DNA of 64,000 bases from Candidatus Wildermuthbacteria bacterium (GCA_016186115.1 JACPMK010000002.1:200983-264982), one strand, 5' to 3'; counted from the first letter of the stretch, positions 8,144-21,885 are shown. Notes: generated from the letters alone by a model not told the origin. Made by a program: numbers and translations.

Positions 8144-8149
8144 AACTCA

Positions 8150-8194: not shown

Positions 8195-8259
8195 CCCGCC
8201 CCGAGATAAACTCGGGGTAAATCTCCTTGATGATTCTTTGAAATTCAACAAAGACAAAG

Positions 8260-8511: not shown

Positions 8512-8589
8512 ACATTTATTGTAGAACTTCTAACTGGGGTGTCAAACAACTTCGCTTACCATCCGTCAAGTTTATGAACCCGAACAGCT

Positions 8590-8718: not shown

Positions 8719-8743
8719 AAGCATAGAAATCAAAAAACTTTGA

Positions 8744-9805
8744 TCAGCCGTGTTTTATTTCAATAACATCCCCGTCTCTAACAACGTATTCTTTCCCTTC
8801 GGTTCGAATCAATCCCTCTGCCATGGCTTCCGCAAGGCCGCCGGCTTCCAGCAATGCATCCCATTGAATTACCGCGGCCCGAATAAAATTTTTCTCAAAA
8901 TCGCTATGAATCACCCCTCCGGCTTGCGGCGCTTTTGCTCCCCGCACAATAGTCCATGCGCGTGTTTCATCGGGGCCGGTGGTAAAAAAAGTAATGAGAT
9001 TTAATATTTCGTACGCCCGTTGAATCAGTTCTGACAAATTCGATTGCATTCCAAGTTCTTGGCGTTCGTTGTCTGAAAGTCCGGCAATTTCTAATTCCTC
9101 TTGGAGATTTACCGCAACAAAAGAGCCGTGCGCCTTTTCTATGTTTTGTTTCAGTTCCAAAGGAATATCTTGGTTTTTTGAATTCAAAAGAAAAATAATT
9201 GGTTTGGCAGTAAGAAGCTGCAGTTCATGGAACACCGGCTCGCTTTCGGGATGCGATCTTTGATATTCCGTAGCTCGTACGCCCTGTTCAAAGAATTTTT
9301 TTGCATCCTGGAGAATTTGATTCTGCGCAATAGCTTCTTTTTTTCCCCCTCGCGCCTCCTTTTCCAAAGATAGAAGTCGTTTTTCTACTGTTTCCAAATC
9401 CTTCAGAAGCAACTCGGTGTGAATGGTATCAATATCGCGCAAAGGGTCAACGCTTTCCTCCACATGAATAATATCGGGATTCTCAAAACAGCGCACAACT
9501 TCTACAATTGCTGACACTTCTCGAATATGTGTCAAAAATTGATTGCCCAACCCTTCGCCCTTATTTGCGCCGCGCACTAACCCCGCAATATCAACAAATT
9601 CGATAACCGTAGGAATGATTTTTTGTGAATGAAAAAGCGCTGCGAGCTTTTGGAGCCGCTCATCGGGAACCTCCACTACCCCGACATTGGGATCAATCGT
9701 CGCGAACGGATAGTTGGCAATATTAACTTCTTTTTTTGTCAGCGCCTGAAATAATGTGGATTTCCCCACATTCGGCAGCCCCACAATTCCGACGGATAAG
9801 CTCAT
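8744..9805 (-). CDS. ychF: Ribosome-binding ATPase YchF
   Basis: 353-aa ORF with P-loop [11 protein letters not shown], motifs [10 protein letters not shown] and DIAGLV, and a C-terminal TGS-like end. Confidence 0.95.
   Translation of the reverse strand: MSLSVGIVGLPNVGKSTLFQALTKKEVNIANYPFATIDPNVGVVEVPDERLQKLAALFHSQKIIPTVIEFVDIAGLVRGANKGEGLGNQFLTHIREVSAIVEVVRCFENPDIIHVEESVDPLRDIDTIHTELLLKDLETVEKRLLSLEKEARGGKKEAIAQNQILQDAKKFFEQGVRATEYQRSHPESEPVFHELQLLTAKPIIFLLNSKNQDIPLELKQNIEKAHGSFVAVNLQEELEIAGLSDNERQELGMQSNLSELIQRAYEILNLITFFTTGPDETRAWTIVRGAKAPQAGGVIHSDFEKNFIRAAVIQWDALLEAGGLAEAMAEGLIRTEGKEYVVRDGDVIEIKHG
9738..9805 (-). repeat. Direct repeat copy 1 (first 68 nt of ychF)
   Basis: Identical at 66 of 68 positions (my count) to 14651-14718. 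Similarity drops sharply beyond that point. Confidence 0.85.
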
Positions 9806-9842
9806 AATTTTTACGCTATAAGGAGAAAATGTTATTGTCTAT

Positions 9843-10850
9843 TTAGTATACAGGTTTTTCTCCCAGCATCCAGTCAATCTCTTGTCGTAGTTTCTTCGTA
9901 TTACCATGGGTAATCATGCCAAGATACGATTGAACCGTTGCCATGTTCCTTCGTTTACGTTCTATGCCACGGAACATCCTTCGCTTCGTCACGGTTCGCA
10001 GTACCCGATGATCTGGGAAATGTACCCACCCGAGAAAATCTACTCCAGAAGCAACGGTTTGTATAAATGTTTTGTCGGGATGCAATTGAAGCCGCAAGTT
10101 GCTCCATAGAAAATCGCTGATTTTCGAGAGTATGTTTTCAAGCAATGTTCTATCTTTTGACAGAATAATAAAATCGTCAGCATAACGAATATAATATCTT
10201 ACCTTCAGTTTGTGCTTCAGAAACTGGTCAAACCTATTCATATATACATTCACCAAGAGCTGGGATGTAAGGTTGCCAAGCGGCAATCCAATTCCATTTC
10301 TGGTTGAATAAAAACTCCGAACGATTTGAGAAATAAGCCATACGGTATCTTCGTCTGGTATAAAACCTTTAATGATTCCCAAGAGTTTGCCTTGGTCTAT
10401 TGAGGCAAAGAACTTTTTTATATCAGATTTTAAGACCCACGCTGTTTTTGTATTATTTTTAGAAGCCCTATATGCAAAAACGCGAAACCTGTTGATTGCC
10501 CTATGTGTTCCTTTCCCAAGTCTGCAGGAATGAGAATCGGCTATAAAAGTTCTATCAAAGAACGGATATAATCTTCTGTAGAGAGCGTGGTGCAGCAATC
10601 TGTCTCTGACACTTGCCTTGTGAATGCTTCTTGGCTTCGGATCAGATATATTAAAGGCGTGATAAGGTGAATGTTTATACGTTTTGGCCACAAGGTCATC
10701 GTGGATAGAAATGATATTGCTCATCAAATTGTGTTCAAACTCTTGTACATCTTGGCGAGACCGTTTGCCAGTTACAAACTCTTTCCAAGCTTCAAGCAGA
10801 TTTTCAAGAGAAATGATATAATTATAGTTATGAGTGAATTGAACGTTCAT
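9843..10850 (-). CDS. Diversity-generating retroelement reverse transcriptase
   Basis: 335-aa ORF with RT motifs 1-7, including YIRYADDFIIL and the DGR-diagnostic motif 4 LPLGNLTSQ ([I/L]GxxxSQ). No maturase or endonuclease domain. The cognate TR/VR pair lies adjacent. Confidence 0.9.
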   Translation of the reverse strand: MNVQFTHNYNYIISLENLLEAWKEFVTGKRSRQDVQEFEHNLMSNIISIHDDLVAKTYKHSPYHAFNISDPKPRSIHKASVRDRLLHHALYRRLYPFFDRTFIADSHSCRLGKGTHRAINRFRVFAYRASKNNTKTAWVLKSDIKKFFASIDQGKLLGIIKGFIPDEDTVWLISQIVRSFYSTRNGIGLPLGNLTSQLLVNVYMNRFDQFLKHKLKVRYYIRYADDFIILSKDRTLLENILSKISDFLWSNLRLQLHPDKTFIQTVASGVDFLGWVHFPDHRVLRTVTKRRMFRGIERKRRNMATVQSYLGMITHGNTKKLRQEIDWMLGEKPVY

Positions 10851-11246
10851 AAAAAATCTTTTCAGGTAAGCCCCCCCCCACGCCTTTTACCGCTTCTTCA
10901 GAAATTGAAAGAGGCATATCTTGCGTGGTACGGCTACTACCAAATCTTACCTAAACTCCATCGCCATTCTCTTGGGCAAAGGATTGATACTCTTTTTGTC
11001 GAAATCATTGAAGCTGTTGCAATGGCAAGTTTTCTTTCTCCTCAACAAAAACATCCTTACGTGCGCCTTTCCATAAGAAAGCTTGATACATTAAAAATAC
11101 TCTTGATGGTTCTTTGGGAGACAAAATCTGTTGATGATAAAAAGTACATTGCTGTCTCTATAAAAATAAACGAGATTGGCAGAATGCTTGGCGGATGGAA
11201 CGGCCAATTACAGAAACAAAACTCTCCCGATAAGAGAGAGAAATGA
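10830..11246 (+). CDS. avd: DGR accessory variability determinant (Avd, four-helix-bundle protein)
   Basis: Avd-like pattern LP..QKLKEAYLAWYGYYQILPKLHRHSLGQRID and a C-terminal NEIGRMLGGW, comparable to EVGRILGSW of Bordetella phage bAvd. It lies on the opposite strand to RT, TR and target. The ATG at 10830 is the only canonical start, and it overlaps the RT start divergently by 21 nt, so the start is uncertain. Confidence 0.75.
   Translation: MSELNVHKKSFQVSPPPRLLPLLQKLKEAYLAWYGYYQILPKLHRHSLGQRIDTLFVEIIEAVAMASFLSPQQKHPYVRLSIRKLDTLKILLMVLWETKSVDDKKYIAVSIKINEIGRMLGGWNGQLQKQNSPDKREK
10871..10879. repeat. C9/G9 homopolymer tract
   Basis: Nine consecutive C residues encoding SPPP near the avd 5' end (codons 14-17 from ATG 10830), 21-29 nt upstream of the RT start on the other strand. 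Confidence 0.9.
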
Positions 11247-11252
11247 AGTAAG

Positions 11253-11389
11253 TTGCGGGGCAGGACGAAAGCCCACCGATTGTCAGGATTCCAGACATTG
11301 TCGGGATTGCCGTTGTTGCTGTTGAGCCATAGACCATTGTCATTGTGCTCGACATTGAACACGTTGAGGTTGCCGTCCGAGTCGGTTAT
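11253..11389 (-). repeat. DGR template repeat (TR)
   Basis: 137 nt aligning without gaps to 11739-11875 (offset 486). It reads as an Asn-codon-rich frame (ITDSDGNLNVFNVEHNDNGLWLNSNNGNPDNVWNPDNRWAFVLPRN). All but one difference from the VR are at A on the minus strand. Confidence 0.85.
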
Positions 11390-11734
11390 GCACAGAGTGT
11401 CATCTCTACCACTGCCCCTTGAATACTCTCGGGGCTGTATCGTATTCGGCATCTTTAATGCCCTAACACTCTATACCAAGTAGCTTCATTTTTTGAAGTT
11501 TCTGCGTACACCGCGCTATCTCAAACCGTAGTCGGAGATACTCTGGATGTATGGATACTGGGTTCGGCAGCAGAAAACCTTGATCTTCTGCGTATTCGCC
11601 TACTTCCATTTGTATTGTATCAAAGAAAAAGCCCCGCATCCATTCTTCGCTTGCGAGCGAAGACAGATACGGGGCTACAAACTCAAGGATCAAGTTTCGA
11701 GGATCCAAAAGATCCAAGATTCAAGACCCAAGAG

Positions 11735-12379
11735 CTACTTGCGGGGCAGGACGAAAGCCCACCGAAAGCCAGGATTCCAGACACGGTCGGGATCGCCGTT
11801 GCTGCCGTCGAGCCACAGACCACTGCCATCGTGCACGACAATGAAAACGCGGAGGTTGCCGTCCGAGTCGGTGATAGGATCCATTCCGATAAGGAACCAC
11901 TCGTCCATCGGCTGGTCAAGGTACTGCTCGCGCATGGCGGGACCAACTTCACCCGGACACCTCTGAAGACCAAGCTCCAAGGCACGCTTGTAGATGAGAT
12001 CCCGTCGCGTGGCAACCTTGAAGCCCAGCTGACTGCCAGTCACAAGCACCAGGTCCACCTCAACCACTTCCTGACTGCAGGAGGTCTTGTCGAGGATCTG
12101 GCTGGCATAGGTACCGATTTGGTACTTACCCTCGTCGAGGGCCTTGCGATACTCCCTGGGCGACTTGCGAAGACCAAGCTTGACGGTCTTCCAAATCTTG
12201 AACTCGGGGACAAGGACCTGCTGATCACGCCTTAGAATGGATGCGAAGTCCCGCTCTTCCTTGATGACCTGCAAGACATTGCAGACCTCGTCAGCGTCAC
12301 GCTTCCCGTCACGGATAAGCTCTAACACTCCCGTGGTCAGATCGAGTAACCTTGCCTTCTGCTTAGTTGTCGCAACCAT
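11735..12379 (-). CDS. DGR target (variable) protein
   Basis: 214-aa ORF whose last 46 codons are the VR. The C-terminal pattern ...NGDPDRVWNPGFRWAFVLPRK resembles FGE/C-type-lectin-fold DGR targets; the fold is an inference. Spot counts suggest higher GC than neighbouring genes. Confidence 0.8.
   Translation of the reverse strand: MVATTKQKARLLDLTTGVLELIRDGKRDADEVCNVLQVIKEERDFASILRRDQQVLVPEFKIWKTVKLGLRKSPREYRKALDEGKYQIGTYASQILDKTSCSQEVVEVDLVLVTGSQLGFKVATRRDLIYKRALELGLQRCPGEVGPAMREQYLDQPMDEWFLIGMDPITDSDGNLRVFIVVHDGSGLWLDGSNGDPDRVWNPGFRWAFVLPRK
11739..11875 (-). repeat. DGR variable repeat (VR)
   Basis: Counterpart of the TR with 19 mismatches, 18 at TR adenines. This changes 13 codons (for example N to R, I, D, S or F). 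The 3'-terminal 27 nt (11739-11765) are invariant and GC-rich, as expected of an IMH-like end. Confidence 0.85.
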
Positions 12380-12544
12380 CTTGAACCGTCCTTTCGCTCC
12401 GGTTTTCGCGGAGGATACAATGTGCTATGCGATAGATAGATCTACCGCATTCAAGATATATATAGCATAACTACTTAGAAAAGTCAAGCTTTTTGCGGTA
12501 CATTCTACTCCGAATCGCAAGTAATTTACCCAAGCCAGCCGCTA

Positions 12545-13552
12545 TTGGATACAATGGATGGCATGGTAAAACATATAACCGACAGCCAGAGAAATGAAAT
12601 CTCCGTGCTCAAACGGGCAGGACATACGCAAAAAGACATTGCCAGGATGCTTGGCAAAGATCCTTCAGCGATATCCCGAGAATTACAGAGAAACAAAAGC
12701 GACGCAGGCAGGTACTTAGCCAGAGGCGCTAAGCTGAAAACCAAGGAGCGAAGAATACAAGCGAACAAGAGGTTTAAAAAGATTGAACACAACACAAAGT
12801 TAAGAAAGTACGTTGTTAAAAAATTGAAGAAGTATCTATCTCCCGAGCAAATAGCTGGCCAATGGACCAAAAGCCATCAAAATCAGCGCATCGGCAAAGA
12901 CACCATCTACAAGTTTGTGTATGGAAAACGAAAAGACCTGGTAAAGTATCTGCGGTGTCAGAAAGGCAAGTACCGGCGCAGATATGGCACCAGGATCAGG
13001 GAAAAACAGCGAGAAGAGAGTAAAAAGCGAAGAATAGACGTGAGACCGGAAATAATCAACCTGCGCCAGAGAATCGGCGACTGGGAAGGCGATACGGTCA
13101 AGGGCAGCGGCAGATCAGGGCACATTATCACCTACGTAGAAAGAAAGTCGGGGTATCTAGTGGCCGGGGAAGCAGAGAATGCAACGGCAGAGAACATCAA
13201 CGCGTTTACCATGGGAGAGTTTAACAAGATTCCTCGCGGCAAGAGACTATCTATTACCTATGACAATGGGTCAGAGTTCGCGGGGTATGCTACCATAGAA
13301 CAAAAGACTGGAATGACCGCGTACTTCGCCTTTCCGTACCACTCATGGGAACGGGGAACCAACGAAAATACCAATGGATTGGTCAGACAGTACTTTCCGA
13401 AAGGAACCGACTTTACCGATGCGTCTCTTTCAGCAATCAGGGAAGCTGAACAGAGGTTAAACTCCAGACCAAGAAAAACGCTGGGCTTCTACACTCCATC
13501 AGAGAGGTTTTACCAACTAATCACCGGGAAGAAAATTGCGTTGGAAACTTGA
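12545..13552 (+). CDS. IS30-family DDE transposase
   Basis: 335-aa ORF with an N-terminal HTH (QRNEISVLKRAGHTQKDIARMLGKDPSAISRELQRN) and a DDE core (GDWEGD...DNGSEF...ENTNGL). I could not define the terminal inverted repeats by eye. Confidence 0.9.
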   Translation: MDTMDGMVKHITDSQRNEISVLKRAGHTQKDIARMLGKDPSAISRELQRNKSDAGRYLARGAKLKTKERRIQANKRFKKIEHNTKLRKYVVKKLKKYLSPEQIAGQWTKSHQNQRIGKDTIYKFVYGKRKDLVKYLRCQKGKYRRRYGTRIREKQREESKKRRIDVRPEIINLRQRIGDWEGDTVKGSGRSGHIITYVERKSGYLVAGEAENATAENINAFTMGEFNKIPRGKRLSITYDNGSEFAGYATIEQKTGMTAYFAFPYHSWERGTNENTNGLVRQYFPKGTDFTDASLSAIREAEQRLNSRPRKTLGFYTPSERFYQLITGKKIALET

Positions 13553-13572
13553 ATTCAGCTTGCGCAAGAAAA

Positions 13573-13595
13573 AGGGCAAGCAGGTACTGCTTGCC
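13573..13595 (+). terminator. Hairpin after the transposase gene
   Basis: Perfect 10-bp stem GGGCAAGCAG/CTGCTTGCCC about 20 nt after the stop. Only a weak T tract follows. Confidence 0.4.
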
Positions 13596-13807
13596 CTTAA
13601 TGGGGAAAGGGCTGTTCGCCTAGCGAGGTCCCCATATATCCACTATAGACGAATTCCAATATGAATGTCAAGTGCAACGTCAGGAATCAATGTCTCATAG
13701 CTTCCCTGCCTTGCCTTAGCGGGAGGCCGGAAACCATAATCCACTCCCCTTTGGAGCGGGGGCGGGAGCGCTATTTCAAACGAAAAGGGAACTAGCTTTG
13801 TCTCTGG

Positions 13808-13836
13808 ATGTCGGGTTGTGAGCTGACCATACCTAC
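13808..13836. repeat. Conserved site, copy A (ATGTCGGGTTGTG-agctga-CCATACCTAC)
   Basis: The 13-nt left arm and 10-nt right arm are identical to copy C; the 6-nt spacer differs at 2 positions. It lies 25 nt 3' of the DUF5615 toxin stop. Confidence 0.8.
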
Positions 13837-13860
13837 GGATAGTGCAGACATTAATATGGG

Positions 13861-14226
13861 TTACAGGAGGGGGCGCGAACGGACACTGCCCGGCTCGATT
13901 ACAATTATCCGTTTACGGAAGTCTTGTTCCTCCATTCCTTCAATCAACCTTTCAACTTCTTTATAAAGGGTAGTCACCGAAACTTCATTGGGAAATCGCA
14001 AAACAACCAAACCGAGCAGTTGAGTTAATGGGAACCTAGTGGGATTGGCAAATCCGAGATCTTTTGTAACAATAACGGCTTGCTTGGCGACCGCGTAGTC
14101 AAAAACGACTTCGTCGGGTTGACCGCGAAGTTCCTGTATGTTTTTTACGCATTCTGCCTCAAATCCTTTTTCTTCAAATAAAATCCTTATTGAAGATGTG
14201 ATATTTTCATCAATAAGAAAAATCAT
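13861..14226 (-). CDS. DUF5615-type (PIN-like) putative toxin
   Basis: 121-aa ORF starting MIFLIDENI..., with a 1-nt overlap onto an upstream DUF433-like gene, which is the usual pairing for this family. Confidence 0.65.
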   Translation of the reverse strand: MIFLIDENITSSIRILFEEKGFEAECVKNIQELRGQPDEVVFDYAVAKQAVIVTKDLGFANPTRFPLTQLLGLVVLRFPNEVSVTTLYKEVERLIEGMEEQDFRKRIIVIEPGSVRSRPLL

Positions 14227-14450
14227 TATTTGGCTATGAGCATTTCTTCGCCGACAAGCTTTGCGGCATATTTCAAAGCGGCTAAAACTTGCGCGCGGGT
14301 CAATCCATACTCTTTCATCACCGCTTCAGTTGTATCCCCTGCGGCAATATGGCCAACGACAACCTCCACCGGCACTCTTGTTCCGGTGATCACAGGTTTG
14401 CCAAACTGAACTTTTGCATCTACTGTAACTTGGGGGAAAATCTCCTTCAT
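14226..14450 (-). CDS. DUF433-type putative antitoxin
   Basis: 74-aa ORF with FGKPVITGTRVPVEVVV and a C-terminal HTH-like EYGLTRAQVLAALKYA, characteristic of DUF433. Confidence 0.7.
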   Translation of the reverse strand: MKEIFPQVTVDAKVQFGKPVITGTRVPVEVVVGHIAAGDTTEAVMKEYGLTRAQVLAALKYAAKLVGEEMLIAK

Positions 14451-14484
14451 ATAGGTTCATTGTATTCAAAACTTGCCGGAAAAG

Positions 14485-14718
14485 TCAAGCCAAACCCGCA
14501 ATATCATAAAATTCTACAATGGCAGGCACCACTTTTGCCGAATGAAAAAGCTGGGCAAGTTTATCAAGCCGTTCGTCTGGAACCTGAACCACGCCCACAT
14601 TAGGGTCAATGGTAGCAAAGGGATAATTTGCTATTGTTACCGGCTTTCTCGTCAGCGCCTGAAACAACGTGGATTTCCCCACATTCGGCAGCCCCACAAT
14701 TCCGACGGATAAGCTCAT
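14485..14718 (-). pseudogene. Truncated second copy of the ychF 5' end (77 codons)
   Basis: [51 protein letters not shown]...DIAGLA* is collinear with YchF residues 1-77 and stops right after the DxxG motif. The first 68 nt are nearly identical to ychF; the rest is diverged. Confidence 0.85.
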
Positions 14719-14751
14719 ATCATAAATATCCTATCATAAAACTCTCTTTCT

Positions 14752-14796
14752 CAAAAGAAAAGACCCTCTGCCCCGGTATAGAACCAGGACAGAGGG
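14752..14796 (-). terminator. Rho-independent terminator of purL
   Basis: On the minus strand CCCTCTGTCCTGG-ttctata-CCGGGGCAGAGGG forms 13 bp (two G-U pairs), followed by TCTTTTCTTTT, 29 nt after the purL stop. Confidence 0.65.
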
Positions 14797-14824
14797 CTTT
14801 ATTCAGCAAGACCACATATGGCTG

Positions 14825-17800
14825 CTACTTAGCGCACCATTCGTAGGCGTTGCTAAACATTTTGAGCCAAGGGCTTACCTCCATTCTCCGCCATTCCTCT
14901 GGCATCCAGGGCCACTGCCACAAACGGAAACAACGTTCTGGATGAGGCATCATCGCAAGATGACGTCCGTCCGGAGAGCACAGAGCCGTAATCCCGAGTG
15001 GCGAACCATTCGGATTGTACGGATACACTTCCGTTCGATCGCCGTATGGATCGATGAATGCGAGAGGCGAAAGCTTGCGCTCTGAAACCTCCTGCGCGAC
15101 CGACTGATCAGGGTAGACCAGCAAGCCTTCACCATGAGCGACCCACACACCGAGCTTCGTCCCTTCCATGCCGGCAAGAAGCACCGACGGGCTAGGCAGA
15201 ACTTCCACCTGTACCCATCGAGACTCAAACCGGCCCGAAGTGTTGTGAACGAATCTCGGCTGCTTTTCACCGGCGATCCCTTTCCATGGAACCCATCCGA
15301 GCAGCGCCATCAGCTGACAGCCGTTGCACACGCCGAGCGAGAACGTATCCTTGCGGGCGTAGAAGCGGTCGAACATCTCCCTCAGCTTCTCATTGAAAAG
15401 AATTGTCCCTGCCCATCCTTTCGCGCTATCGAACACGTCCATGTAGGAGAAGCCACCGGCAAAGATTATGCCCTGGAATTGATCCAGATCGATCCTGCCT
15501 TCAAGGAGATCACTCATCGTGACATCCCATGGAGCAAAACCGGCAGCTGCACATGCAGCCTGCATTTCTCTGTCGCCGTTCGTGCCTTCCTCGCGCAATA
15601 CTGCAACGCGAGGCTTGTCCGACGCCTCCAAAACTTCCGGAAGCGTTGCCACTGGAGTAAACGAGAGCTGATACGACGGAGCCGTACCGATGCCGGGAAG
15701 CTGGTCATCGTGACCAGAATGTTCTTCTTCGGCACACGCAGAGTTCATCTGCAGCCCTTCGATCTTGGCACTTGTCGCCTCCCACCAGCACCGGAGTTCC
15801 ATCGTCGTACTTCTGAACAGTTCTCCGGTATCTTTCGCATCGACGCTGCATGCTGTGCTGTCGAGGGTGATTCCGATCATCGAGATCGGCACTCCGAACG
15901 ATTCGCAGATTTCAAAAACCCGCTTTTCATTCTCGGTCCCGAGTTCAATGACGAACCCGAGCTCCTCGCCAAACAGACTCGCCAGAGCTTCAGCAGCATA
16001 AGGGATGCTCACGCTGAATCCGCACCGACTCGCCATACACATCTCGGCAACTGCGGTTATGAGGCCGCCATCGCTTCGATCATGTAGAGACAGAATCAAC
16101 CTTTCGTCGATCATCTGCTGCACCGCAAGAAACTCGTTCTTGAGGAGTTTGGGATTTTCAACGTCAGGCGACTCATCGCCGAGCTGGTCGAACGCTTGAG
16201 CCAAAGCTGAACCGCCGAGGCGATTTTTACCCTGTCCAAGATCGATGAGTGCCAACGCACTTCGCCCTGGTTTCTTAATGTCCGGCGTGACCTTCTTCGT
16301 GATGTCGGGCACGGGTGCGTATCCGAGCATCACCAAACTTCCGGGAGCCTTTACGAGCTCTCCCGAAATCGTCGCAGCCATTGAAAGGCTATCCTTTCCG
16401 CCATCAACCGCGATACCGAGCCCGACCATGAGGTCAGACATAGCAACCGCAGCGTCATAGAGGAGGGCACCTTCGTGAGGCAGCTTCGCAGGCCACATCC
16501 AGTTTGCACGGCACCGGATTTCTCCGATGTCGCTGATCCGAGCCGAAGCCATGTTGGTCAGCATTTCTGCCACCGCCATTCGGGCTCCGGCTTTTGCATC
16601 GATGAGCATCTTGATCGGCTGTTCGCCGACCGCAGAAGCACTTCCTGTAAGAGCGAAGTGACTCTGCGCATTGATGCTGACATTCGCAATCGGAATCTGA
16701 GCGATCCCGCAGCATTGCTGCTGCGCTACGAGCCCAGTGACACTACGATCCACCTTGTGAACCAAGAATCCCTTAGAGCCCACGCCAGGAAGTTTGAACA
16801 CCGCCTGGATTGCTTCGCCGACAGTGACATCCGGCAAACAGAGAGGTTTGAAGCCTTCGGTCCGCCGTGTTGACTCGAACGTCTTCTGAGGCATGTTCGT
16901 GAGAATCTGCTCCAGGTTCAGTTCGACGGACGTTGTCCCGTTTTTAGTGTCTTCGACAACAACGTTTCCACTGCCATCAATTTCACCGAGGACTTCGCAG
17001 TTGACGCGCTCGCGTTTGCAGACCGACTTGAAAAGCTCGATCTGCTCCGCCCTGATCAGGAGTCCGTATCCCTCTTGGAATTCGGCGCTCCAGATTTTGA
17101 GGACGGACATCGTCTTATCGCCAAGCACGATGCCACGAATGTCGATCTTGCCGCCAAGTGGCTCAAGCAACTCCGTGAGGACATTGCTCGGACCGCCGGC
17201 GCCTTGATCGTGAATGCTCGAGATGGGATTCTTGTCTCCCATTTCGACGCAGGCCCGAATTACTCGGTTCGCACGATTCTCCATCTCCGCGTTGCCGCGT
17301 TGAACGGAGTTGAAATCGAGGTCCTCGGTATTCTCGCCCTGCATCATGCTTGAGGCTGAGCCTCCGCCTACTCCGATGGGGTAAGCAGGACCGCCGATGC
17401 GCACGATGAGCATTCCAACTTCAGACTTCTCCTTCGCAGTATGTCCGTCGAACAGATGTCCAACGCCACCGCTGTAAAGGATCGGCTTACGTGGCTCGCG
17501 CCATTCGCTTCCGAGTGTCTGACCGAAAGTTCGGGTAAAGCCCAGTGTGAGGGGTTCGCCGAACTGATTGCCGTAGCTCGATACGCCGTTGCTGCCCTCG
17601 ATGAGAATCGAAAGCGGCGAAGCGTACTTCGACGGCTTGTCCTTGCCGACAACCTCGCCCGGAATTTGATATCCAGGAATGAAAAGGTTCCCGACAAAGT
17701 AACCGGCGACGCCGATGCCAACGATGCCTCCGCGTCCGACCGCACTGTTGTCGCGTATCCGTCCGCCGGAACCCGTTTGGGCTCCAGGGAAAGGCGCGAC

Positions 17801-18646
17801 GAAGGTCGGATGGTTATGCGTTTCCGCGGTGCAGGTGATGTGAACCACCTTATCGAGAATTCGCATTTCCGAAGGCTTGCCCGGAGTGACTGGAAGGATC
17901 AGGCGTGTGTCAAATCCCTTGATCACGCCGGCGTTGTCTTTGAAGGCAACGAGGCTGCAGTTGTCACTGCCGAGACTTTTCAGCGGTCGCTGAACGATCT
18001 CAAACAACGTCTCCTGCATTGGTGTTCCGTCGATGACGATTTGGCCTTTGAAGTACCAATGCCGGCTGTGCTCGCTGTTTGCGTTGCCCAGCTGGAACAA
18101 TTCGACATCGGTCGGATTCCTGCGAAGGACTTCCGCAAAGAGATGTTGATAGTACTCAAGATCCCGGGCATCCATGCCAAGGCCAAAAGCACCGTTCATC
18201 TCCTCGAGCGCGACTTTTCCGCGACCCATGAGGTCGATCACTCGGACATCTTCCGGCGTGGTACCGGTGTCAAAGCTCTCGATCCCGTTCGGGTAGTGCT
18301 GCTCGGTCATCCGATCAAAACGAGTCTTGAGGATGTCTGCCGACTGGCCGTTTCCGGCAGCGTAGCGGTGAGTGCGTTCAATGCGCGTGATCTGCCAAAG
18401 CCCCATGGCCTGACAAATCGATACGGCATTCGACGAGAACGGAGTCTCGATCGAAAGCCGGGGTCCGATTTCCACAGCTTCCGAAGCTGAGATGTAAGGT
18501 TCGATTCCGGTGTTACCGGGCTCGAACGTTTCTGCGATGAGCCATTGGAGCTGCTTGAGCTCCGGCTCGGACAACTGATCTATGGTCTCGATGTAGAAAC
18601 CAAGATCCAAGCCGTCATTGATCTGGCGGTACATGCGATAGATCAT
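14825..18646 (-). CDS. purL: Phosphoribosylformylglycinamidine synthase, single-chain large form
   Basis: 1273-aa ORF with an N-terminal domain, duplicated PurM-like synthetase domains, and a C-terminal glutaminase domain (GVCNGCQLM nucleophile, HGEG, PHPER). It appears intact. Sampled lines run 55-60% GC. Confidence 0.95.
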   Translation of the reverse strand: MIYRMYRQINDGLDLGFYIETIDQLSEPELKQLQWLIAETFEPGNTGIEPYISASEAVEIGPRLSIETPFSSNAVSICQAMGLWQITRIERTHRYAAGNGQSADILKTRFDRMTEQHYPNGIESFDTGTTPEDVRVIDLMGRGKVALEEMNGAFGLGMDARDLEYYQHLFAEVLRRNPTDVELFQLGNANSEHSRHWYFKGQIVIDGTPMQETLFEIVQRPLKSLGSDNCSLVAFKDNAGVIKGFDTRLILPVTPGKPSEMRILDKVVHITCTAETHNHPTFVAPFPGAQTGSGGRIRDNSAVGRGGIVGIGVAGYFVGNLFIPGYQIPGEVVGKDKPSKYASPLSILIEGSNGVSSYGNQFGEPLTLGFTRTFGQTLGSEWREPRKPILYSGGVGHLFDGHTAKEKSEVGMLIVRIGGPAYPIGVGGGSASSMMQGENTEDLDFNSVQRGNAEMENRANRVIRACVEMGDKNPISSIHDQGAGGPSNVLTELLEPLGGKIDIRGIVLGDKTMSVLKIWSAEFQEGYGLLIRAEQIELFKSVCKRERVNCEVLGEIDGSGNVVVEDTKNGTTSVELNLEQILTNMPQKTFESTRRTEGFKPLCLPDVTVGEAIQAVFKLPGVGSKGFLVHKVDRSVTGLVAQQQCCGIAQIPIANVSINAQSHFALTGSASAVGEQPIKMLIDAKAGARMAVAEMLTNMASARISDIGEIRCRANWMWPAKLPHEGALLYDAAVAMSDLMVGLGIAVDGGKDSLSMAATISGELVKAPGSLVMLGYAPVPDITKKVTPDIKKPGRSALALIDLGQGKNRLGGSALAQAFDQLGDESPDVENPKLLKNEFLAVQQMIDERLILSLHDRSDGGLITAVAEMCMASRCGFSVSIPYAAEALASLFGEELGFVIELGTENEKRVFEICESFGVPISMIGITLDSTACSVDAKDTGELFRSTTMELRCWWEATSAKIEGLQMNSACAEEEHSGHDDQLPGIGTAPSYQLSFTPVATLPEVLEASDKPRVAVLREEGTNGDREMQAACAAAGFAPWDVTMSDLLEGRIDLDQFQGIIFAGGFSYMDVFDSAKGWAGTILFNEKLREMFDRFYARKDTFSLGVCNGCQLMALLGWVPWKGIAGEKQPRFVHNTSGRFESRWVQVEVLPSPSVLLAGMEGTKLGVWVAHGEGLLVYPDQSVAQEVSERKLSPLAFIDPYGDRTEVYPYNPNGSPLGITALCSPDGRHLAMMPHPERCFRLWQWPWMPEEWRRMEVSPWLKMFSNAYEWCAK

Positions 18647-18662
18647 GGCTCTCCCCTTTCTT

Positions 18663-19031
18663 TTAGCCGCGTGGGAAAAGTATCCCCGCGACCTGTTTTG
18701 CTACCGCGAGGATTGCGTGCTCTCCCTCACGCACGAGGGGTTCGGAACGTATCAGTTCGCGAACTCGGCTCTCTGAGAACGCAAGGAGCGTCTCAATTTG
18801 CAGCCTGTGTTCTTGCGGGAGAACTCTCTCTTGGAGTGTTGCCACATTGTCGTCAGGATTGATGGAGATTGTGATCCGTTGTCGAACTCAGGCGCCACCC
18901 GCATCCGGTTTTGACGCAATGACGAGCACCGGTTCGACTCGCGAGAGGAACCCGGACTTCACCGCCCGGAGAATCTCACGCATAGTCGTTCCGCCGCCTG
19001 AAACGAGCATAGCAATACGCAGTTTGTCCAC
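18663..19031 (-). pseudogene. purN: Decayed phosphoribosylglycinamide formyltransferase remnant
   Basis: A GTG start at 19031 follows an AAGGAG SD and gives VDKLRIAMLVSGGGTTMREILRAVKSGFLSRVEPVLVIASKPDAGGA, a PurN N-terminus. An in-frame TGA at 18888-18890 follows. The same frame then continues ...ITISINPDDNVATLQERVLPQEHRLQIETLLAF, the PurN C-terminal RV..QEH region. The catalytic middle (roughly 100 codons, including the NIHPSLLP region) is missing. Confidence 0.7.
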
Positions 19032-19176: not shown

Positions 19177-19208
19177 AACGGGCTACTCCTGCGAAACTTA
19201 AACCCTTT

Positions 19209-19286
19209 CAGAAAGTTGGATTTTGAACTCAAAGAGTACCAAGCTCTGGCTTTCTTCGTGTCGGGTTGTGTTCCAACCATGCCGCA
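19209..19286. repeat. Conserved site, copy B (extended element)
   Basis: 19209-19283 aligns without gaps to 20943-21017 at 61 of 75 identities (my count). The core is GTGTCGGGTTGTG-ttccaa-CCATGCCGCA at 19258-19286. Confidence 0.8.
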
Positions 19287-19433
19287 AGAAAGCTTCCTAA
19301 CGAAAACATCTTAACACAAAATGTCCTCATGTAAATCAGTGGCTCAGAAACCTAACCACTTGACAGGAAAAACGAGGGGTGTATACTAAAAATACTAGAC
19401 CTGAACGGCATCCTTCGTGGGTGCCGTTCGCTT

Positions 19434-20078
19434 TTATAGGCCGCTACTCTCCCTATCTTCGTATTCCAGATATGTCCGCAAATATTCAAAGTCGAGAAAC
19501 TTACTCCCCGCGAAGCGCTTGATTTCTTTAGCCGTACGCGGCCCGCGAGCGAGCACCAAGACCTCTCTGCCGCTCTCGCATAGGTACTTGAACACCGGCA
19601 AGAAGTCGCCGTCGCCAGAGAGTACAATGGCACGATCGAAAGAATCTTTTTCGGTCGCCATCATCAAAGTCATATCTACATCGCAATTCGCCTTACGGAG
19701 CGGGTTGCCATCCATATCGTTGTAGGTCTTAACCGGCTTCAAGACGAGTGTGTATCCAAACGATTCCAGTTTGAGGAAGAAACACACGCGATTGTGATGG
19801 CGCGCGACAAGCTTGAGCTCGGCGTCGTTCATCTGATCACCGCGTTCCTTGACGTACCTGGAGAGATACTGGTCGAGCTTACGGACATTGACTGTCTTTT
19901 CAGTAAGATAGTCAAACGGAAAGTGATGGATCTCCACGCCGCCGAAATAGTAGAGCTGCGAGACGCCGTACTTCCGTTCCAAATAGCCGCGCAGTTTTTC
20001 ATAATCAATCTTCCAACCAAGGGATTTCTCGCCGCCGTAAAAAAGATTTGAAGCATCAATAAATGCAAATGTCTTCAT
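19434..20078 (-). CDS. NYN (LabA/DUF88-like) domain nuclease-fold protein
   Basis: From internal Met MKTFAFIDASNLFYG..., with later acidic motifs CDVDM and LSGDGDF typical of NYN/PIN-like domains. The longer ORF-track start (20333) would overlap the upstream gene. Confidence 0.65.
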   Translation of the reverse strand: MKTFAFIDASNLFYGGEKSLGWKIDYEKLRGYLERKYGVSQLYYFGGVEIHHFPFDYLTEKTVNVRKLDQYLSRYVKERGDQMNDAELKLVARHHNRVCFFLKLESFGYTLVLKPVKTYNDMDGNPLRKANCDVDMTLMMATEKDSFDRAIVLSGDGDFLPVFKYLCESGREVLVLARGPRTAKEIKRFAGSKFLDFEYLRTYLEYEDRESSGL

Positions 20079-20172
20079 GGATTTATCATAGCAAAAGATA
20101 GTTTCTTTGGCGATTGGTGCAAAAGAAAAGGCCGCTTGGCGAACCATGCGGCCTGAATAGGATACATCCTCG

Positions 20173-20529
20173 TTATTCGACTGGCTTATGTTCCACGAAC
20201 TCGTTCTTGGCGTGGGTTTTGAGCCAGATGCCAAAGTGGTAGGTCTTGATTCCAGGACATCTCTGAATGAGAAGCTCCTTGATGCGCTCGGCGCATTCCT
20301 TTTCTTGATCGATCGTGCGAACGCCAGAGTCAATCACGATCTCCAGAGGCAATGCGTTATCGGTGAACTCCGGGTCCTCAACAGAAGAGTAGAAGGCCAC
20401 ATCTTCAGCGGGATATCCTAACGCTTCAGCAATGGTCGTTCGAATTCGACTCTTCTGAAACCGGAGCAAATCCTTGAGATTTTGGGTACCGGTACCGCTC
20501 GCGAGGAATCTTGCTGTTATCTGTGGCAC
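20173..20529 (-). CDS. Hypothetical protein; possible tautomerase-superfamily member (Met-Pro start)
   Basis: 118-aa ORF starting MPQITARF. A Pro-1 start is suggestive of a tautomerase, but no other motif can be verified by eye. Confidence 0.3.
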   Translation of the reverse strand: MPQITARFLASGTGTQNLKDLLRFQKSRIRTTIAEALGYPAEDVAFYSSVEDPEFTDNALPLEIVIDSGVRTIDQEKECAERIKELLIQRCPGIKTYHFGIWLKTHAKNEFVEHKPVE

Positions 20530-20560
20530 TGCACACCTCCTTCAAAATAACCTTGGGAAT

Positions 20561-20857
20561 CTACTTGAGAAGACCCATCTGACGCCTCCAATAAAGATCT
20601 CGAATCTTCTCAATCATCAAGGGGCATACTGTATTTGAGTGGGTAACCTCGGCCCGCGTTTCCGGAAGATCAGAGGATTGGATCTCTTGACCCAGAGCTT
20701 TAGCTTCCACATCGGTTAGATTTCCAGCATCTTTATGCTGGAGAACATCCTCATAACCCATATCTCGTGCCCATACCTCACGACTCTCCGAACTATCAGA
20801 GAAAACGATCCTCCCATGAGCTTTGCATTGAGGGCAAACCTCAAAATGAATATCCAC
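20561..20857 (-). CDS. Hypothetical protein with a CPQC motif
   Basis: I prefer the GTG start at 20857 because AGGAGG lies 7 nt upstream. The ORF track starts at a TTG at 20932. No family recognised. Confidence 0.4.
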   Translation of the reverse strand: MDIHFEVCPQCKAHGRIVFSDSSESREVWARDMGYEDVLQHKDAGNLTDVEAKALGQEIQSSDLPETRAEVTHSNTVCPLMIEKIRDLYWRRQMGLLK

Positions 20858-20942
20858 GGGCTTTCCTCCTTGGAGCCAGATTTGTTGTTCTAATGCTGGT
20901 GATATGATATAGCAAATCGTCGCTTTTGTCAAACTGCCGCGT

Positions 20943-21020
20943 CAGAAAGTTGGATTTTGAACTCGAATGGTATCAAGCTCTCCCCTTCTTCATGTCGGGT
21001 TGTGAACTGCCCATACCTAC
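20943..21020. repeat. Conserved site, copy C (extended element)
   Basis: Core ATGTCGGGTTGTG-aactgc-CCATACCTAC at 20992-21020, beginning 9 nt 3' of the pyrH stop. The extended part matches copy B. Confidence 0.8.
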
Positions 21021-21028
21021 AGACAAAG

Positions 21029-21748
21029 TCATGATATGAGAGTTCCGGTAAATTCTTTGCCTTCAATGGCTTTTTTCAAATTCTCAAGATCGGTTCCCTT
21101 TACGGTTTTTACCACAAGGTGGATTTCTTCAGCCAACCTTGCCGCCACGGGGTCAATGGGCGAAGCAAGCCCCGGCTTCCATTTAGCAGGAATGAGTTTC
21201 CGGTATGTTTGCCAAGAGATTTCCGAAAATGGTTTTGCGTCTTTGTAGATCTTTGGATCTTTATCGTATACGAACGGAGTATCTCCGGCATCAATCATTT
21301 CTTTGGCATGGAATTTTTGCGCCAGCCGCACCGCAACATAGTCGGTGGACCAGCCCGGCCTCCAACCAGAAGCGATAAATAGTTTCGCCTTTTCCGCTTT
21401 CAGATCGAGGGCTTCCCCAAACGACGGGTCGTGATCAATCACAACCGGATGCGCTTCTTTTACAAAAATAGTGCGCATCAAATGGGCGTTCAAGCGAGTC
21501 GCGTGGATTCCAATCCAGTCCAAGTCCTCATCGGTCATCTTCACCACTTCTGCCGCAGAGCGATTATATACCCGCGCAGTTTTCCCTCCTCCGATTATCA
21601 AAATAAATCTTCTCCCATTGTTAAGCTCCTGTAATAAAAATCTCCGAAACTCTCGGAGAAATGAAACATTAATACCATCCTCGTCTGTCAAATGCGGAAC
21701 CACGATGGAACCCCCAAGCGCTATAACAACGAATTTTGAGTTGTCCAT
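21029..21748 (-). CDS. pyrH: Amino-acid-kinase family protein, archaeal-type UMP kinase-like
   Basis: From Met MDNSKFVVIALGGS, with IIGGGKTAR, GIHATRLNA and GWRPGWSTDYVA, matching the archaeal PyrH pattern. The ORF-track start at 21841 is less likely. Confidence 0.6.
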   Translation of the reverse strand: MDNSKFVVIALGGSIVVPHLTDEDGINVSFLREFRRFLLQELNNGRRFILIIGGGKTARVYNRSAAEVVKMTDEDLDWIGIHATRLNAHLMRTIFVKEAHPVVIDHDPSFGEALDLKAEKAKLFIASGWRPGWSTDYVAVRLAQKFHAKEMIDAGDTPFVYDKDPKIYKDAKPFSEISWQTYRKLIPAKWKPGLASPIDPVAARLAEEIHLVVKTVKGTDLENLKKAIEGKEFTGTLIS

Positions 21749-21885
21749 ACCCTGCCAGCCATTATATCCGCTTTTGCTCCCCGTGTCTATACCTCTATGA
21801 ATAAGAATATCCTCCGCGACAAACGCACAGAGGATTTTCATATTATTCCCCTATCACTGCGCAGAGTCCTGAAAATTTCCAGGAG

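What the first reader, a model, noticed from the sequence alone, without database searches (positions are those of the whole stretch)
9738..14718. ychF 5'-end duplication brackets a ~4.8-kb island carrying the DGR, IS30 and a TA pair
The first 68 nt of ychF (9738-9805) recur at 14651-14718 with 66 of 68 identities. Beyond this core the second copy continues as a diverged, truncated YchF N-terminus, roughly four-fifths identical by eye over 77 codons and ending right after DIAGL. A near-identical core with a diverged flank is the pattern left by an element that integrates into the 5' end of a conserved gene and brings its own replacement gene segment, leaving attL- and attR-like copies. Everything between the copies is accessory. 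No integrase is present, so the element may be decayed or may have been mobilised in trans.
Basis: partly seen in the sequence, partly recalled or inferred. Interest (0 to 1): 0.6.

Follow-up and report, generated by a model that had tools for sequence, protein, structure and literature searches.

The report
Serine-recombinase insertion hotspot at ychF start
The duplicated start of the ychF gene is real, but it is one scar among several in an 11-kb pile-up of decayed mobile elements that a family of serine recombinases repeatedly inserted into the first codons of ychF in these ultra-small (CPR) bacteria.

Summary
ychF nt 1-68 (9738-9805) recur at 14651-14718 with 66/68 identities, followed by a diverged, in-frame 77-codon fragment.

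In five related Wildermuthbacteria-like genomes, ychF directly abuts an amino-acid-kinase gene (window 21029-21841). In the window, 11.2 kb lies between them.

Each is a ychF-like start (about 17-20 nt) fused to a conserved sequence that encodes the C-terminal tail of a large serine recombinase (LSR).

Elsewhere I found:
- an 8.4-kb circular element whose LSR gene contains the attachment site;
- complete integrated elements whose LSR gene reads straight into ychF, with the tail left at the far end;
- 77 of the 120 best LSR homologues ending in frame-shifted ychF sequence.

So the region is an accretion of LSR-element remnants. Their cargo is NYN nuclease; purN'/purL; a toxin-antitoxin pair; and IS30 plus the DGR. 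No recombinase remains in the window.

R3 splits the proposed "4.8-kb island" in two. LSR chemistry duplicates only about 17-20 nt, so the 77-codon fragment needs a separate illegitimate join. Its origin remains unresolved.

The parts
21029..21841 (-). Amino-acid-kinase-family gene (AAK). It is the ancestral upstream neighbour of ychF and the left anchor of the accretion zone.
   Evidence: Pfam AA_kinase. In L002-L006 its orthologue ends 0-50 nt before ychF (825 nt in L006). In L003 the AAK stop overlaps the ychF ATG as ATGA.
20929..21032 (-). R1, an attL-type junction. An orphan native ychF start (21032-21016, ATGACTTTGTCTGTAGG = MTLSVG) overlaps the AAK stop as ATGA. It is fused to a serine-recombinase tail (...RYGQFTTRHEEGESLIPFEFKIQLSDAAV*).
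   Evidence: 39/46 identity to the AAK-end/ychF-start of L003 at the homologous position. nhmmer E = 2e-23 to the R model. Tail peptide. Coordinates.
19299..20928 (-). Block E1 cargo. It holds a promoter-like site at 20932-20904, two small ORFs (20561-20857 and 20173-20529), a NYN-domain nuclease (19434-20147), and a right end carrying an outward promoter (19335-19308).
   Evidence: Pfam NYN and PADLOC NYN. The NYN gene plus right end (19287-20154) is 93.1% identical at the nucleotide level to L096, whose core genes are only 63-71% identical. Promoter scan.
19198..19298 (-). R2, an internal junction. The decayed ychF-start mimic of E1 (19298-19282, AGGAAGCTTTCTTGCGG) is fused to a second recombinase tail (RHGWNTTRHEESQSLVLFEFKIQLSERV*), followed by a terminator at 19175-19147.
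   Evidence: It sits exactly where the intact ychF of L096 begins after the same NYN block. nhmmer E = 9e-22. 87% identical to R1 over 63 nt.
14763..19031 (-). Block E2 cargo. It holds a truncated purN remnant (18888-19031, 47 codons), an intact large purL (14825-18646, 1273 aa, GC about 56% against about 44% for the genome), and the purL terminator (14797-14763).
   Evidence: ORFs, Pfam, composition, terminator scan, PDB matches to FGAM synthases.
14485..14718 (-). ychF' fragment: 77 codons plus a stop. nt 1-68 match ychF at 66/68 and codons 23-77 are diverged. It looks like the 5' part of a once-functional ychF from a related lineage.
   Evidence: Its N-terminus is as close to other family members (up to 46/54) as that of the full copy (up to 47/54). 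There are no stops or indels despite saturated synonymous change.
13861..14488 (-). Block E3 remnant. A toxin-antitoxin pair with its own promoter (TTGACT-18-TACAAT, 14488-14459) that starts exactly at the ychF' breakpoint. DUF433 antitoxin-like gene at 14226-14450; DUF5615 PIN-like gene at 13861-14226.
   Evidence: Pfam, promoter scan, alignment end-point.
13643..13851 (-). R3, an internal junction. A P-arm-like ychF start mimic (13851-13832, ATGTCTGCACTATCCGTAGG) is fused to a long recombinase tail (RYGQLTTRHPETKLVPFSFEIALPPPLQRGVDYGF...).
   Evidence: tblastn gives 58% identity over 50 aa to the tail of LSR P0284 (E = 6e-12). nhmmer E = 5e-18. Translation. Coordinates.
12545..13552 (+). IS30-family transposase gene, inside block E4 and in opposite orientation. 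No terminal inverted repeats were found.
   Evidence: Pfam HTH_38 plus rve. Inverted-repeat search was negative.
9843..12379 (-). The DGR, cargo of block E4. Target gene at 11735-12379 with VR 11739-11875; TR 11253-11389; bAvd at 10860-11246 (plus strand); reverse transcriptase at 9843-10850.
   Evidence: Pfam RVT_1 and bAvd. TR/VR are 137 nt with 19 mismatches, 18 at TR adenines.
8744..9805 (-). Full-length ychF (353 aa). Its first ~17 nt form the current attR-side start (P arm) and nt ~18-50 form the attB right half.
   Evidence: Pfam MMR_HSR1 plus YchF-GTPase_C. Downstream synteny with TGT and F420-ligase-like genes matches the relatives.

Best explanation
The stretch between the kinase gene (AAK) and ychF is an accretion zone. 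It was built by repeated integration of mobile elements that use a large serine recombinase (LSR) whose chromosomal target is the P-loop-coding start of ychF.

**How the element works (shown in relatives).**
- The element's attachment site (attP, about 50 bp, with outer inverted ATGTCG...CGACAT) lies inside the 3' end of its own recombinase gene.
- The left half of attP encodes the recombinase C-terminal region in one frame. In another frame it encodes a start codon plus the first 6-9 YchF codons.
- Crossover occurs at about ychF nt 17-18 (...ATC GG|).
- After integration the recombinase body sits directly upstream of ychF and reads into it out of frame. ychF is rebuilt with an element-supplied start.
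- The old ychF start is stranded at the far end, fused to the cut-off recombinase tail (HRHGxNTTRH...LIPFxFxIKLP...).

**What the window holds.** The window has three such stranded junctions and no recombinase body. I read it as four stacked remnants, in gene direction:
1. R1 | small ORFs + NYN nuclease
2. R2 | purN' + purL
3. ychF' fragment + toxin-antitoxin pair
4. R3 | IS30 + DGR, followed by the working ychF.

Later elements integrated into the rebuilt start left by earlier ones. The recombinase genes were then lost.

**The 77-codon fragment (inferred, not shown).** It is not an LSR product. It is the 5' 231 nt of another, once-functional ychF allele, joined to the toxin-antitoxin promoter by one illegitimate recombination. 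Two routes are possible. Donor DNA "purL-ychF(1-231)" may have come in upstream of the toxin-antitoxin pair. Or donor DNA "TA-ychF" may have replaced the resident gene from nt 232 onward.

**The near-identical first 53-68 nt (inferred).** I attribute this to P-loop codon conservation, similar element-supplied starts, and possibly a short gene-conversion patch.
For: **Synteny.** AAK-ychF are adjacent in L002-L006. None of the window's intervening genes occurs there.

**The R repeat.** R occurs three times in the window, only in this zone and all in one orientation.

**R in metagenomes.**
- The R motif found 15 metagenome contigs. In all 15 it directly follows ATG-nnn-CTn-TCn-ATn-GG.
- Where a full ychF lies within the retrieved DNA, it is 1.5-10.6 kb downstream of R, with varied cargo.
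- L102 and L103, from one sample, share identical upstream DNA through CCATCGG and then diverge. Different elements therefore occupy one site.

**R is coding.** It matches the C-termini of LSRs.

**Complete elements.**
- L103 is a 10.6-kb element with a Prim-Pol primase and a 543-aa LSR (Resolvase + Recombinase + Zn_ribbon_recom). The LSR ORF ends inside ychF.
- L110/L100, the closest relative by YchF (70% identity), has AAK-R...HTH_17-LSR-ychF. L011 has the same LSR-ychF junction.

**Episomal form.** L109 is an 8,429-bp circle. It has a 16-nt terminal overlap, and joining the ends rebuilds an HTH_17 gene. Its LSR has an intact tail, and its attP left arm encodes MSSHSLSIG in the ychF frame.

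**LSR family survey.** Of the 120 best LSR homologues, 36 have intact tails and 77 end in frame-shifted ychF read-through.

**Intermediate state.** L096 has AAK-R-...-NYN-intact ychF. The window's R2 sits exactly at that ychF start.

**Fragment origin.** The fragment has saturated synonymous change but conservative protein change, with no stops or indels.
Against: - No recombinase gene is present in the 64-kb window, so every step is inferred from scars and relatives.
- No excision circle or empty site was seen in about 11 independent contigs of this genome.
- The 77-codon fragment, which is the actual finding, is not produced by the LSR mechanism. It needs an extra ad hoc event whose direction I could not determine (87 against 87 matches at the 13 informative sites).
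- The starts of ychF' and ychF are identical over 53 nt, although the neighbouring tails R2 and R3 belong to different subfamilies. Independent element-supplied starts would not predict this, so I have to invoke gene conversion or conservation.
- Unanchored alignment of R against ychF starts is not significant. The link rests on position, the 15/15 context, and the protein match.
- E1 is mosaic relative to L096: only the NYN gene and right end are shared at 93%.
Confidence: 0.75

Rival explanations
1. A single ~4.8-kb element (TA + IS30 + DGR, carrying a captured ychF 5' piece) integrated Campbell-style by crossover within the near-identical 68-nt core. That would leave the fragment as attL and the gene start as attR. 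The integrase was then lost, or acted in trans.
For: There is a direct repeat with a 66/68 core and a diverged flank. The excess identity exceeds what orthologues show. All enclosed genes are accessory.
Against: - An LSR junction (R3) lies inside the segment and shows that its two halves arrived separately.
- The family's crossover is at nt ~17-18 and duplicates no long sequence.
- A single crossover between diverged copies does not create an identical core.
- The accessory zone extends a further 6.3 kb to AAK, with two more junctions.
- No circle or empty-site contigs were found.
Confidence: 0.12
2. Homologous exchange at a hot spot. The fragment and the core identity come from general recombination or gene conversion between ychF alleles of co-occurring Wildermuthbacteria, for example after natural transformation. 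The LSR scars would be old and unrelated to how the TA/DGR segment arrived.
For: The fragment looks like a functional allele from a related lineage. The identical 53 nt are best explained by conversion. The NYN block is 93% identical between genomes whose core genes are 63-71% identical, which shows recent horizontal exchange here.
Against: R3 keeps a long, well-preserved tail (58% identity over 50 aa to a live LSR). It sits exactly between TA and the DGR block, so at least that block arrived by LSR integration. Homologous exchange alone does not make a truncated duplicate.
Confidence: 0.1
3. An in-situ tandem duplication of the ychF 5' end, followed by decay, with the accessory genes inserted later.
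For: The copies are in direct orientation and close together.
Against: Synonymous sites are saturated (26/41). Yet the fragment has only 14/55 mostly conservative replacements and no stop or indel. Its N-terminus is as typical of the family as the full copy's. A dead copy of that age would have decayed.
Confidence: 0.02
4. An assembly artefact that joins two strains at the conserved P-loop sequence.
For: A 53-nt exact repeat could mislead short-read assemblers. Logan contigs L083-L085 break inside the core.
Against: L001 spans purL end, whole fragment and TA at 100% identity. Contigs from several runs agree with the window everywhere else.
Confidence: 0.01

Closest known systems
Large-serine-recombinase integrative elements and prophages (phiC31, Bxb1, A118 in comK, SPbeta, skin)
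   Same: The recombinase architecture is the same: Resolvase + Recombinase + zinc ribbon. The att sites are short (about 50 bp) with outer inverted motifs. The target lies inside a conserved gene. The recombinase gene sits at one end of the integrated element, and a small HTH protein is encoded next to it.
   Different: Here attP lies inside the recombinase's own 3' coding region, so integration cuts off and replaces its last roughly 30-55 residues. The attP left arm also encodes a new start for the target gene, so ychF is restored rather than disrupted. That the classic examples differ on both points is from my own knowledge, not tested here.
Pipolins with LSRs integrated at ychF in Actinomycetota (PMC11551731)
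   Same: ychF is named there as an integration site for LSR-encoding elements with defence-type cargo.
   Different: The host phylum and element type differ: no piPolB is seen here. The paper gives no junction detail that I could compare, so I could not test whether the recombinases are related.
Tandem accretion and cis-mobilizable elements (CIMEs) at ICE att sites, e.g. Streptococcus thermophilus ICESt3 (from my own knowledge)
   Same: These are arrays of recombinase-less remnants, each still bounded by att-type junctions. They stack at one chromosomal site because a new element integrates into the hybrid site left by the previous one.
   Different: Those systems use tyrosine recombinases with identical direct-repeat cores at a gene's 3' end. 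Here a serine recombinase acts at a gene's 5' end. Trans-mobilisation is not shown.
SXT/R391 ICEs in the 5' end of prfC (from my own knowledge)
   Same: The element integrates into the 5' coding end of an essential translation-related GTPase gene and supplies a new start and promoter.
   Different: SXT uses a tyrosine recombinase and a 17-bp core.
attP inside a gene whose product changes on integration: SSV1-type integrase partition, Mx8 intP/intX, mycobacteriophage integration-dependent immunity (from my own knowledge)
   Same: Integration splits or re-tails a phage gene, so the protein differs between the free and integrated states.
   Different: Those cases involve tyrosine integrases or repressors. 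I found no report of this for a serine recombinase, though the search was limited.
Pneumococcal prophage next to ychF (PMC6375853)
   Same: The integrase gene lies directly upstream of ychF, and the integration state alters ychF expression.
   Different: The site is a 14-bp core in the promoter, not the coding start.

Membership tests
Large-serine-recombinase (LSR) integrative element | Encodes a recombinase with Resolvase, Recombinase and zinc-ribbon domains | tested here: not met
   tblastn of six family members against the whole window found no body, only the three tails. The feature is met in relatives L103, L110, L011, L108 and L109. The window therefore holds remnants, not a live element.
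Large-serine-recombinase (LSR) integrative element | Hybrid attL/attR junctions that recombine back to attP and attB, without long direct repeats | tested here: met
   R junctions equal a ychF start plus the attP right arm. LSR-ychF junctions equal the attP left arm plus the rest of ychF. An intact attP is seen in circular L109, and an intact attB in L002-L006.
Large-serine-recombinase (LSR) integrative element | Recombinase-catalysed attP x attB recombination at a central dinucleotide | not testable with these tools
   The crossover is placed only to about nt 17-18, from L102 against L103 and from attL/attR comparisons.
Tandem accretion / CIME-like array | Several blocks lacking a recombinase, each bounded by att-type junctions at one chromosomal site | tested here: met
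   R1, R2 and R3 plus the ychF start bound the blocks. L096 shows the one-block state.
Tandem accretion / CIME-like array | Blocks can be excised or mobilised in trans by a related recombinase | not tested
   The only indirect hint is the NYN block at 93% identity in a distant genome. No circles were seen.
   R3 lies inside at 13851-~13643.
Integron | intI tyrosine integrase with attI and cassettes ending in attC hairpins | tested here: not met
   No tyrosine recombinase was found among the annotated genes of the zone and its flanks. R is coding sequence rather than an attC-type hairpin, and has no Rfam match.
Diversity-generating retroelement | Reverse transcriptase, an accessory Avd, and a TR/VR pair differing at TR adenines | tested here: met
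   RVT_1 and bAvd. 18 of 19 TR/VR mismatches fall at TR adenines.
IS30 insertion sequence | DDE transposase flanked by terminal inverted repeats and a short target duplication | tested here: inconclusive
   A transposase with HTH_38 plus rve is present. No inverted repeats were found around it.

The most novel reading that the evidence does not exclude
This LSR family carries its attP inside its own 3' coding end. Integration would then act as a protein switch: the free circle makes a full-length recombinase with the conserved HRHGxNTTRH...LIPFxFxIKLP tail. The integrated copy makes a re-tailed enzyme whose end is ychF read out of frame. That difference could set the direction of recombination. 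Tail-bearing, recombinase-less blocks (NYN, toxin-antitoxin, DGR, purL) might also be moved in trans. If so, the start of ychF would work as an integron-like cassette platform and the main gene-acquisition site of many CPR/Patescibacteria.
Probability: 0.3. Interest if true: 0.8.

Novelty: new variant of a known kind. Interest (0 to 1): 0.6.

Why it matters
CPR/Patescibacteria have tiny genomes, and few of their mobile elements have been characterised.

**A hotspot for new genes.** A recombinase family with more than 1,700 detected relatives mostly sits in one defined site at the start of ychF. That marks a major, easily recognised hotspot where these organisms pick up defence genes, toxin-antitoxin pairs, DGRs and even foreign metabolic genes such as purL. 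It also gives a simple rule for finding island boundaries in metagenome bins: look for an orphan ychF start fused to the recombinase tail.

**A possible genetic tool.** The attP/attB pair and the small circular element would be an obvious starting point for site-specific integration in organisms that still lack genetic tools.

**For this window.** The DGR is cargo of a decayed integrative element rather than a native feature. The "duplicated ychF" is a by-product of traffic at this site.

Tried and rejected
- **Recurrent 77-codon break.** A 77-aa YchF in another contig (P0010/L082) looked like a second case. It is a nanopore frameshift, because the gene continues in another frame. Short YchF N-terminal fragments in the protein database end at scattered positions, mostly contig ends, so there is no recurrent break at codon 77.
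- **Which copy is native.** I compared both N-termini with 119 homologues. At the 13 informative sites, the 20 closest relatives give 87 matches for each copy. The question is undecidable.
- **R as a structured RNA or tRNA remnant.** ARAGORN found no tRNA. Rfam gave no hit at gathering thresholds over the window, and no hit at E <= 1 over 9000-22000 apart from one weak CRISPR-repeat match at E 0.81. Folding gave only a modest hairpin. The idea was dropped once R proved to be coding.
- **R as a decayed ychF 5' end.** Unanchored local alignment against ychF starts was not significant. Only the first ~17-22 nt are ychF-like. The rest is recombinase tail, and attP partly resembles attB.
- **An intron or intein in the P-loop.** Rejected because the downstream ychF is complete with its own start, and the ychF-frame reading of R hits early stops.
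- **LSR integration at a look-alike site near codon 73-77 (DIAGL resembles GIVGL).** Rejected because no tail follows the fragment, and the downstream gene restarts at nt 1.
- **IS30 as the mobiliser.** No inverted repeats were found, and the gene sits in the middle of block E4.
- **Empty-site or circular forms.** Exact-protein look-ups returned only contigs identical to the window.
- **Island genes near ychF in the 80 GTDB loci.** None were found, apart from a NYN gene next to ychF in L022 and an LSR in L011.

Full report
**1. The observation**

On the minus strand, ychF runs 9805->8744 (353 aa; MMR_HSR1 + YchF-GTPase_C). Its first 228 nt recur at 14719->14492, 4913 nt upstream in the same orientation.
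- The first 68 nt match at 66/68. The first 53 nt, plus one base before the ATG, are identical.
- Codons 23-77 are 68.5% identical at the nucleotide level and 41/55 at the amino-acid level.
- The second copy is an open 77-codon ORF. It stops immediately after DIAGLA, exactly where homology ends.
- Among codons whose amino acid is conserved, 2/22 carry synonymous changes in the core against 26/41 in the flank (Fisher P = 4e-5).

Two qualifications apply.
- The same 68 nt are also the best-conserved DNA among orthologues: 81-88% against 66-77% in L002-L006. Only part of the contrast is special.
- The junctions are not assembly artefacts. Logan contig L001 spans purL end, fragment and antitoxin at 100% identity. 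Ten other contigs from several runs match the window exactly.

**2. Whose genome, and what the ancestral arrangement was**

The fragment and the full protein are both recorded from a Candidatus Wildermuthbacteria MAG with a 395-kb contig. The nearest YchF in 5.8 billion proteins is only 71% identical.

Five related genomes (L002-L006) share long synteny with the window on both sides. In all of them, the amino-acid-kinase gene corresponding to window 21029-21841 lies directly before ychF. The gap is 0-50 nt in four and 825 nt in L006.

In the window, 11.2 kb separates the two genes. None of the intervening genes occurs near ychF in those relatives.

**3.

Repeat finding turned up a ~37-80-nt family with three copies, all in this zone and all in one orientation: near 21000, 19250 and 13820. 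I call them R1, R2 and R3.
- R1 starts exactly at the kinase stop codon, with the same ATGA overlap as the ychF start in L003. It matches L003 across that junction at 39/46.
- Read in the ychF frame, R1 begins MTLSVG and R3 begins MSALSVG, against MSLSVG for YchF.
- Unanchored alignment of R to ychF starts was not significant, so I sought outside evidence.

**4. R in metagenomes**

An exact-pattern scan with the conserved R motif (GGYATGGNNNGNNCACAACCCGACA) returned 15 contigs.
- In every one the motif directly follows a ychF-type start, ATG-nnn-CTn-TCn-ATn-GG.
- A profile built from these copies scores them at E = 1e-18 to 1e-25. It finds only the three window copies in the window.
- Where enough DNA was available, a complete ychF lies 1.5-10.6 kb downstream, with unrelated cargo in between.
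- L102 and L103 come from the same sample. They have identical upstream sequence through ...CCATCGG and then different R variants and cargo. Different insertions therefore occupy one site, with the break at about ychF nt 17-18.

**5. What R is**

In the frame shifted relative to ychF, all R copies encode a conserved peptide: HR(H/Y)G-x-(N/D)TTRH, a short variable stretch, then LIPFxFxIKLP....

In L103, the gene immediately upstream of ychF is a 543-aa large serine recombinase (Resolvase + Recombinase + Zn_ribbon_recom). Its ORF runs into the ychF start and ends ...ELKTIHRY-RRTA.

I joined that protein to the R-encoded peptide from the other end of the same element and searched with it. The search found more than 1,700 relatives, mostly from CPR bacteria. 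Among the best 120:
- 36 carry exactly this tail, for example ...HRHGANTIRH...IPFTFTIKLPPPQYERMITARNSQGRILQS;
- 77 end instead in ...R(N/Y)RRP(P/A)(E/K)(C/R)..., which is the ychF P-loop DNA read out of frame;
- 7 end in other ways.

L109 is an 8,429-bp circle. It has a 16-nt terminal overlap, and joining the ends rebuilds a 61-aa HTH_17 protein homologous to those beside the recombinase in L108 and L110. Its recombinase has the intact tail. The DNA around the HRHG codons reads ATGTCGAGTCACTCCCTCTCCATCGG|CATGGAGTGAACACAACCCAACAT. That is a ~50-bp site with outer inverted ATGTCG/CAACAT (perfect ATGTCG...CGACAT in the attP reconstructed from L103). Its left arm encodes MSSHSLSIG in the ychF frame.

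The closest relative by YchF (L110/L100, 70% identity) has kinase - R - about 15.6 kb - DUF5659 - 402-aa protein - HTH_17 - recombinase - ychF. L011 also has recombinase-ychF.

**6. Mechanism**

*Shown:*
- free circles with attP inside the recombinase gene;
- integrated elements with the recombinase body abutting ychF and the tail at the other end;
- empty sites in relatives.

*Inferred:* the recombinase catalyses attP x attB at the ychF start. The attP left arm supplies a new ATG and the first codons, so ychF stays intact. The old start is stranded with the tail as attL.

A later element can integrate into the rebuilt start, because it mimics attB. That leaves an internal junction made of the previous element's start mimic plus the new element's tail.

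L096 shows the one-block state: kinase - R - ... - NYN - intact ychF. The window has the same NYN gene and right end (93.1% nucleotide identity over 871 nt, against 63-71% for core genes). In the window, however, R2 sits exactly where the L096 ychF begins.

**7. Reading the window**

In gene direction (coordinates):
- Kinase gene | R1 (21032-20929).
- E1: promoter-like site, two small ORFs, NYN nuclease, and an outward promoter at 19335-19308.
- R2 (19298-19198), followed by a terminator.
- E2: a 47-codon purN remnant, then an intact purL of 56% GC and its terminator.
- ychF' (14718-14485).
- The toxin-antitoxin pair, whose promoter TTGACT-18-TACAAT begins at the breakpoint.
- R3 (13851-~13643). 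Its left arm ATGTCTGCACTATCC... looks like an element P arm, and its tail is 58% identical over 50 aa to a live recombinase.
- E4: the IS30 gene and the DGR (TR/VR with 18 of 19 changes at TR adenines).
- ychF.

R1 and R2 share a short-tail subfamily with L096 and L100. R3 belongs to a P0284-like subfamily. No recombinase body exists anywhere in the 64 kb. The array is therefore made of remnants, comparable to cis-mobilizable elements left by tandem accretion.

**8. The 77-codon fragment itself**

Serine-recombinase integration duplicates nothing beyond the short start mimic, so the fragment is not an attL.

Its sequence behaves like part of a working gene from a related lineage. Synonymous sites are saturated, yet there are only 14/55 mostly conservative replacements and no stop or indel. 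It also sits at a typical distance from other family members. This rules out an old in-situ duplicate.

The simplest account is one illegitimate join at nt 231, anchored by homology on the other side. Two routes fit.
- Donor DNA ending in "purL - ychF(1-231)" entered upstream of a resident toxin-antitoxin remnant.
- Donor DNA starting at the toxin-antitoxin promoter and continuing through ychF replaced the resident gene from nt 232.

I could not tell which copy is native.

The identical first 53 nt are not predicted by either route. I attribute them to three things: the strong DNA conservation of this stretch (for example, roughly 1-2 mismatches to L005 in nt 23-53, by my reading of the alignment), similar element-supplied starts, and possibly a conversion patch. 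This part of the explanation is the weakest.

**9. Comparison with what is known**

- ychF has been named as an integration site of LSR-bearing pipolins in Actinomycetota (PMC11551731).
- A pneumococcal prophage integrates in the ychF promoter through a 14-bp core (PMC6375853).
- I found nothing on CPR bacteria, and nothing on a serine recombinase whose attP lies in its own coding end. The searches were limited to open-access text.
- From my own knowledge, the nearest analogies are SXT in the 5' end of prfC (a new start supplied), SSV1/Mx8 (attP inside int), mycobacteriophage integration-dependent immunity (a protein re-tailed by integration), and ICE/CIME accretion.

I therefore rate this a new variant of a known kind.

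**10. Verdict**

The locus is a serine-recombinase integration hotspot at the ychF start, holding four stacked remnants. The DGR, IS30 and toxin-antitoxin pair are cargo of two different remnants. The ychF fragment is collateral damage from a separate recombination event. Confidence is about 0.85-0.9 for the hotspot mechanism and about 0.5 for the origin of the fragment.

Noticed in passing
window 14825-19031: An intact 1273-aa single-chain purL of about 56% GC sits in a genome of about 44% GC. It is preceded by a 47-codon purN remnant, so a fragment of a foreign purine operon rides as cargo in a CPR genome. Its best solved-structure match is the 1369-aa chain 9n9w (1171 bits), well above Salmonella PurL (876 bits).
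   Followed up: partly
window 6747-8733: Between ychF and TGT the window carries a cytidine-deaminase-like gene, a HhH-GPD glycosylase-like gene and two small ORFs. In relatives L002, L003 and L006 TGT follows ychF with no window gene detected between them (5-475 nt gap). The downstream side of ychF is therefore also variable.
   Followed up: no
window 12545-13552: The IS30-type transposase gene has no detectable terminal inverted repeats within about 150-300 nt on either side. It may be a decayed or atypical copy.
   Followed up: partly
window 10860-11246 versus 9843-10850: The DGR accessory bAvd gene lies on the opposite strand to the RT, TR and target gene. A long upstream extension of its ORF overlaps the RT start.
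   Followed up: no
L108 2434-4352, L110 8087-11629, L109: Elements of this family share a conserved module: DUF5659 protein, a ~370-400-aa protein without Pfam hits, a small ORF, an HTH_17 protein, then the recombinase. The HTH_17 protein is a candidate directionality factor or regulator.
   Followed up: partly
P0304, P0307, P0311: Close homologues of this mostly CPR recombinase family (62-64% identity, with the intact tail) occur in Bradyrhizobium chromosomes. This suggests a much wider host range, or transfer between phyla.
   Followed up: no
L093/L106, L101, L022, L096: NYN-domain (LabA-like) nuclease genes recur right next to the ychF integration site in several unrelated contigs, in either orientation. 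They match a PADLOC NYN defence-associated model.
   Followed up: partly
L082 10001-10505: A 77-aa 'YchF' in a nanopore-polished contig is a frameshift artefact. The ATP synthase alpha gene on the same contig is also split.
   Followed up: yes
window, whole: Almost all long ORFs lie on the minus strand, and no tRNA gene or Rfam family was detected in the 64 kb.
   Followed up: no
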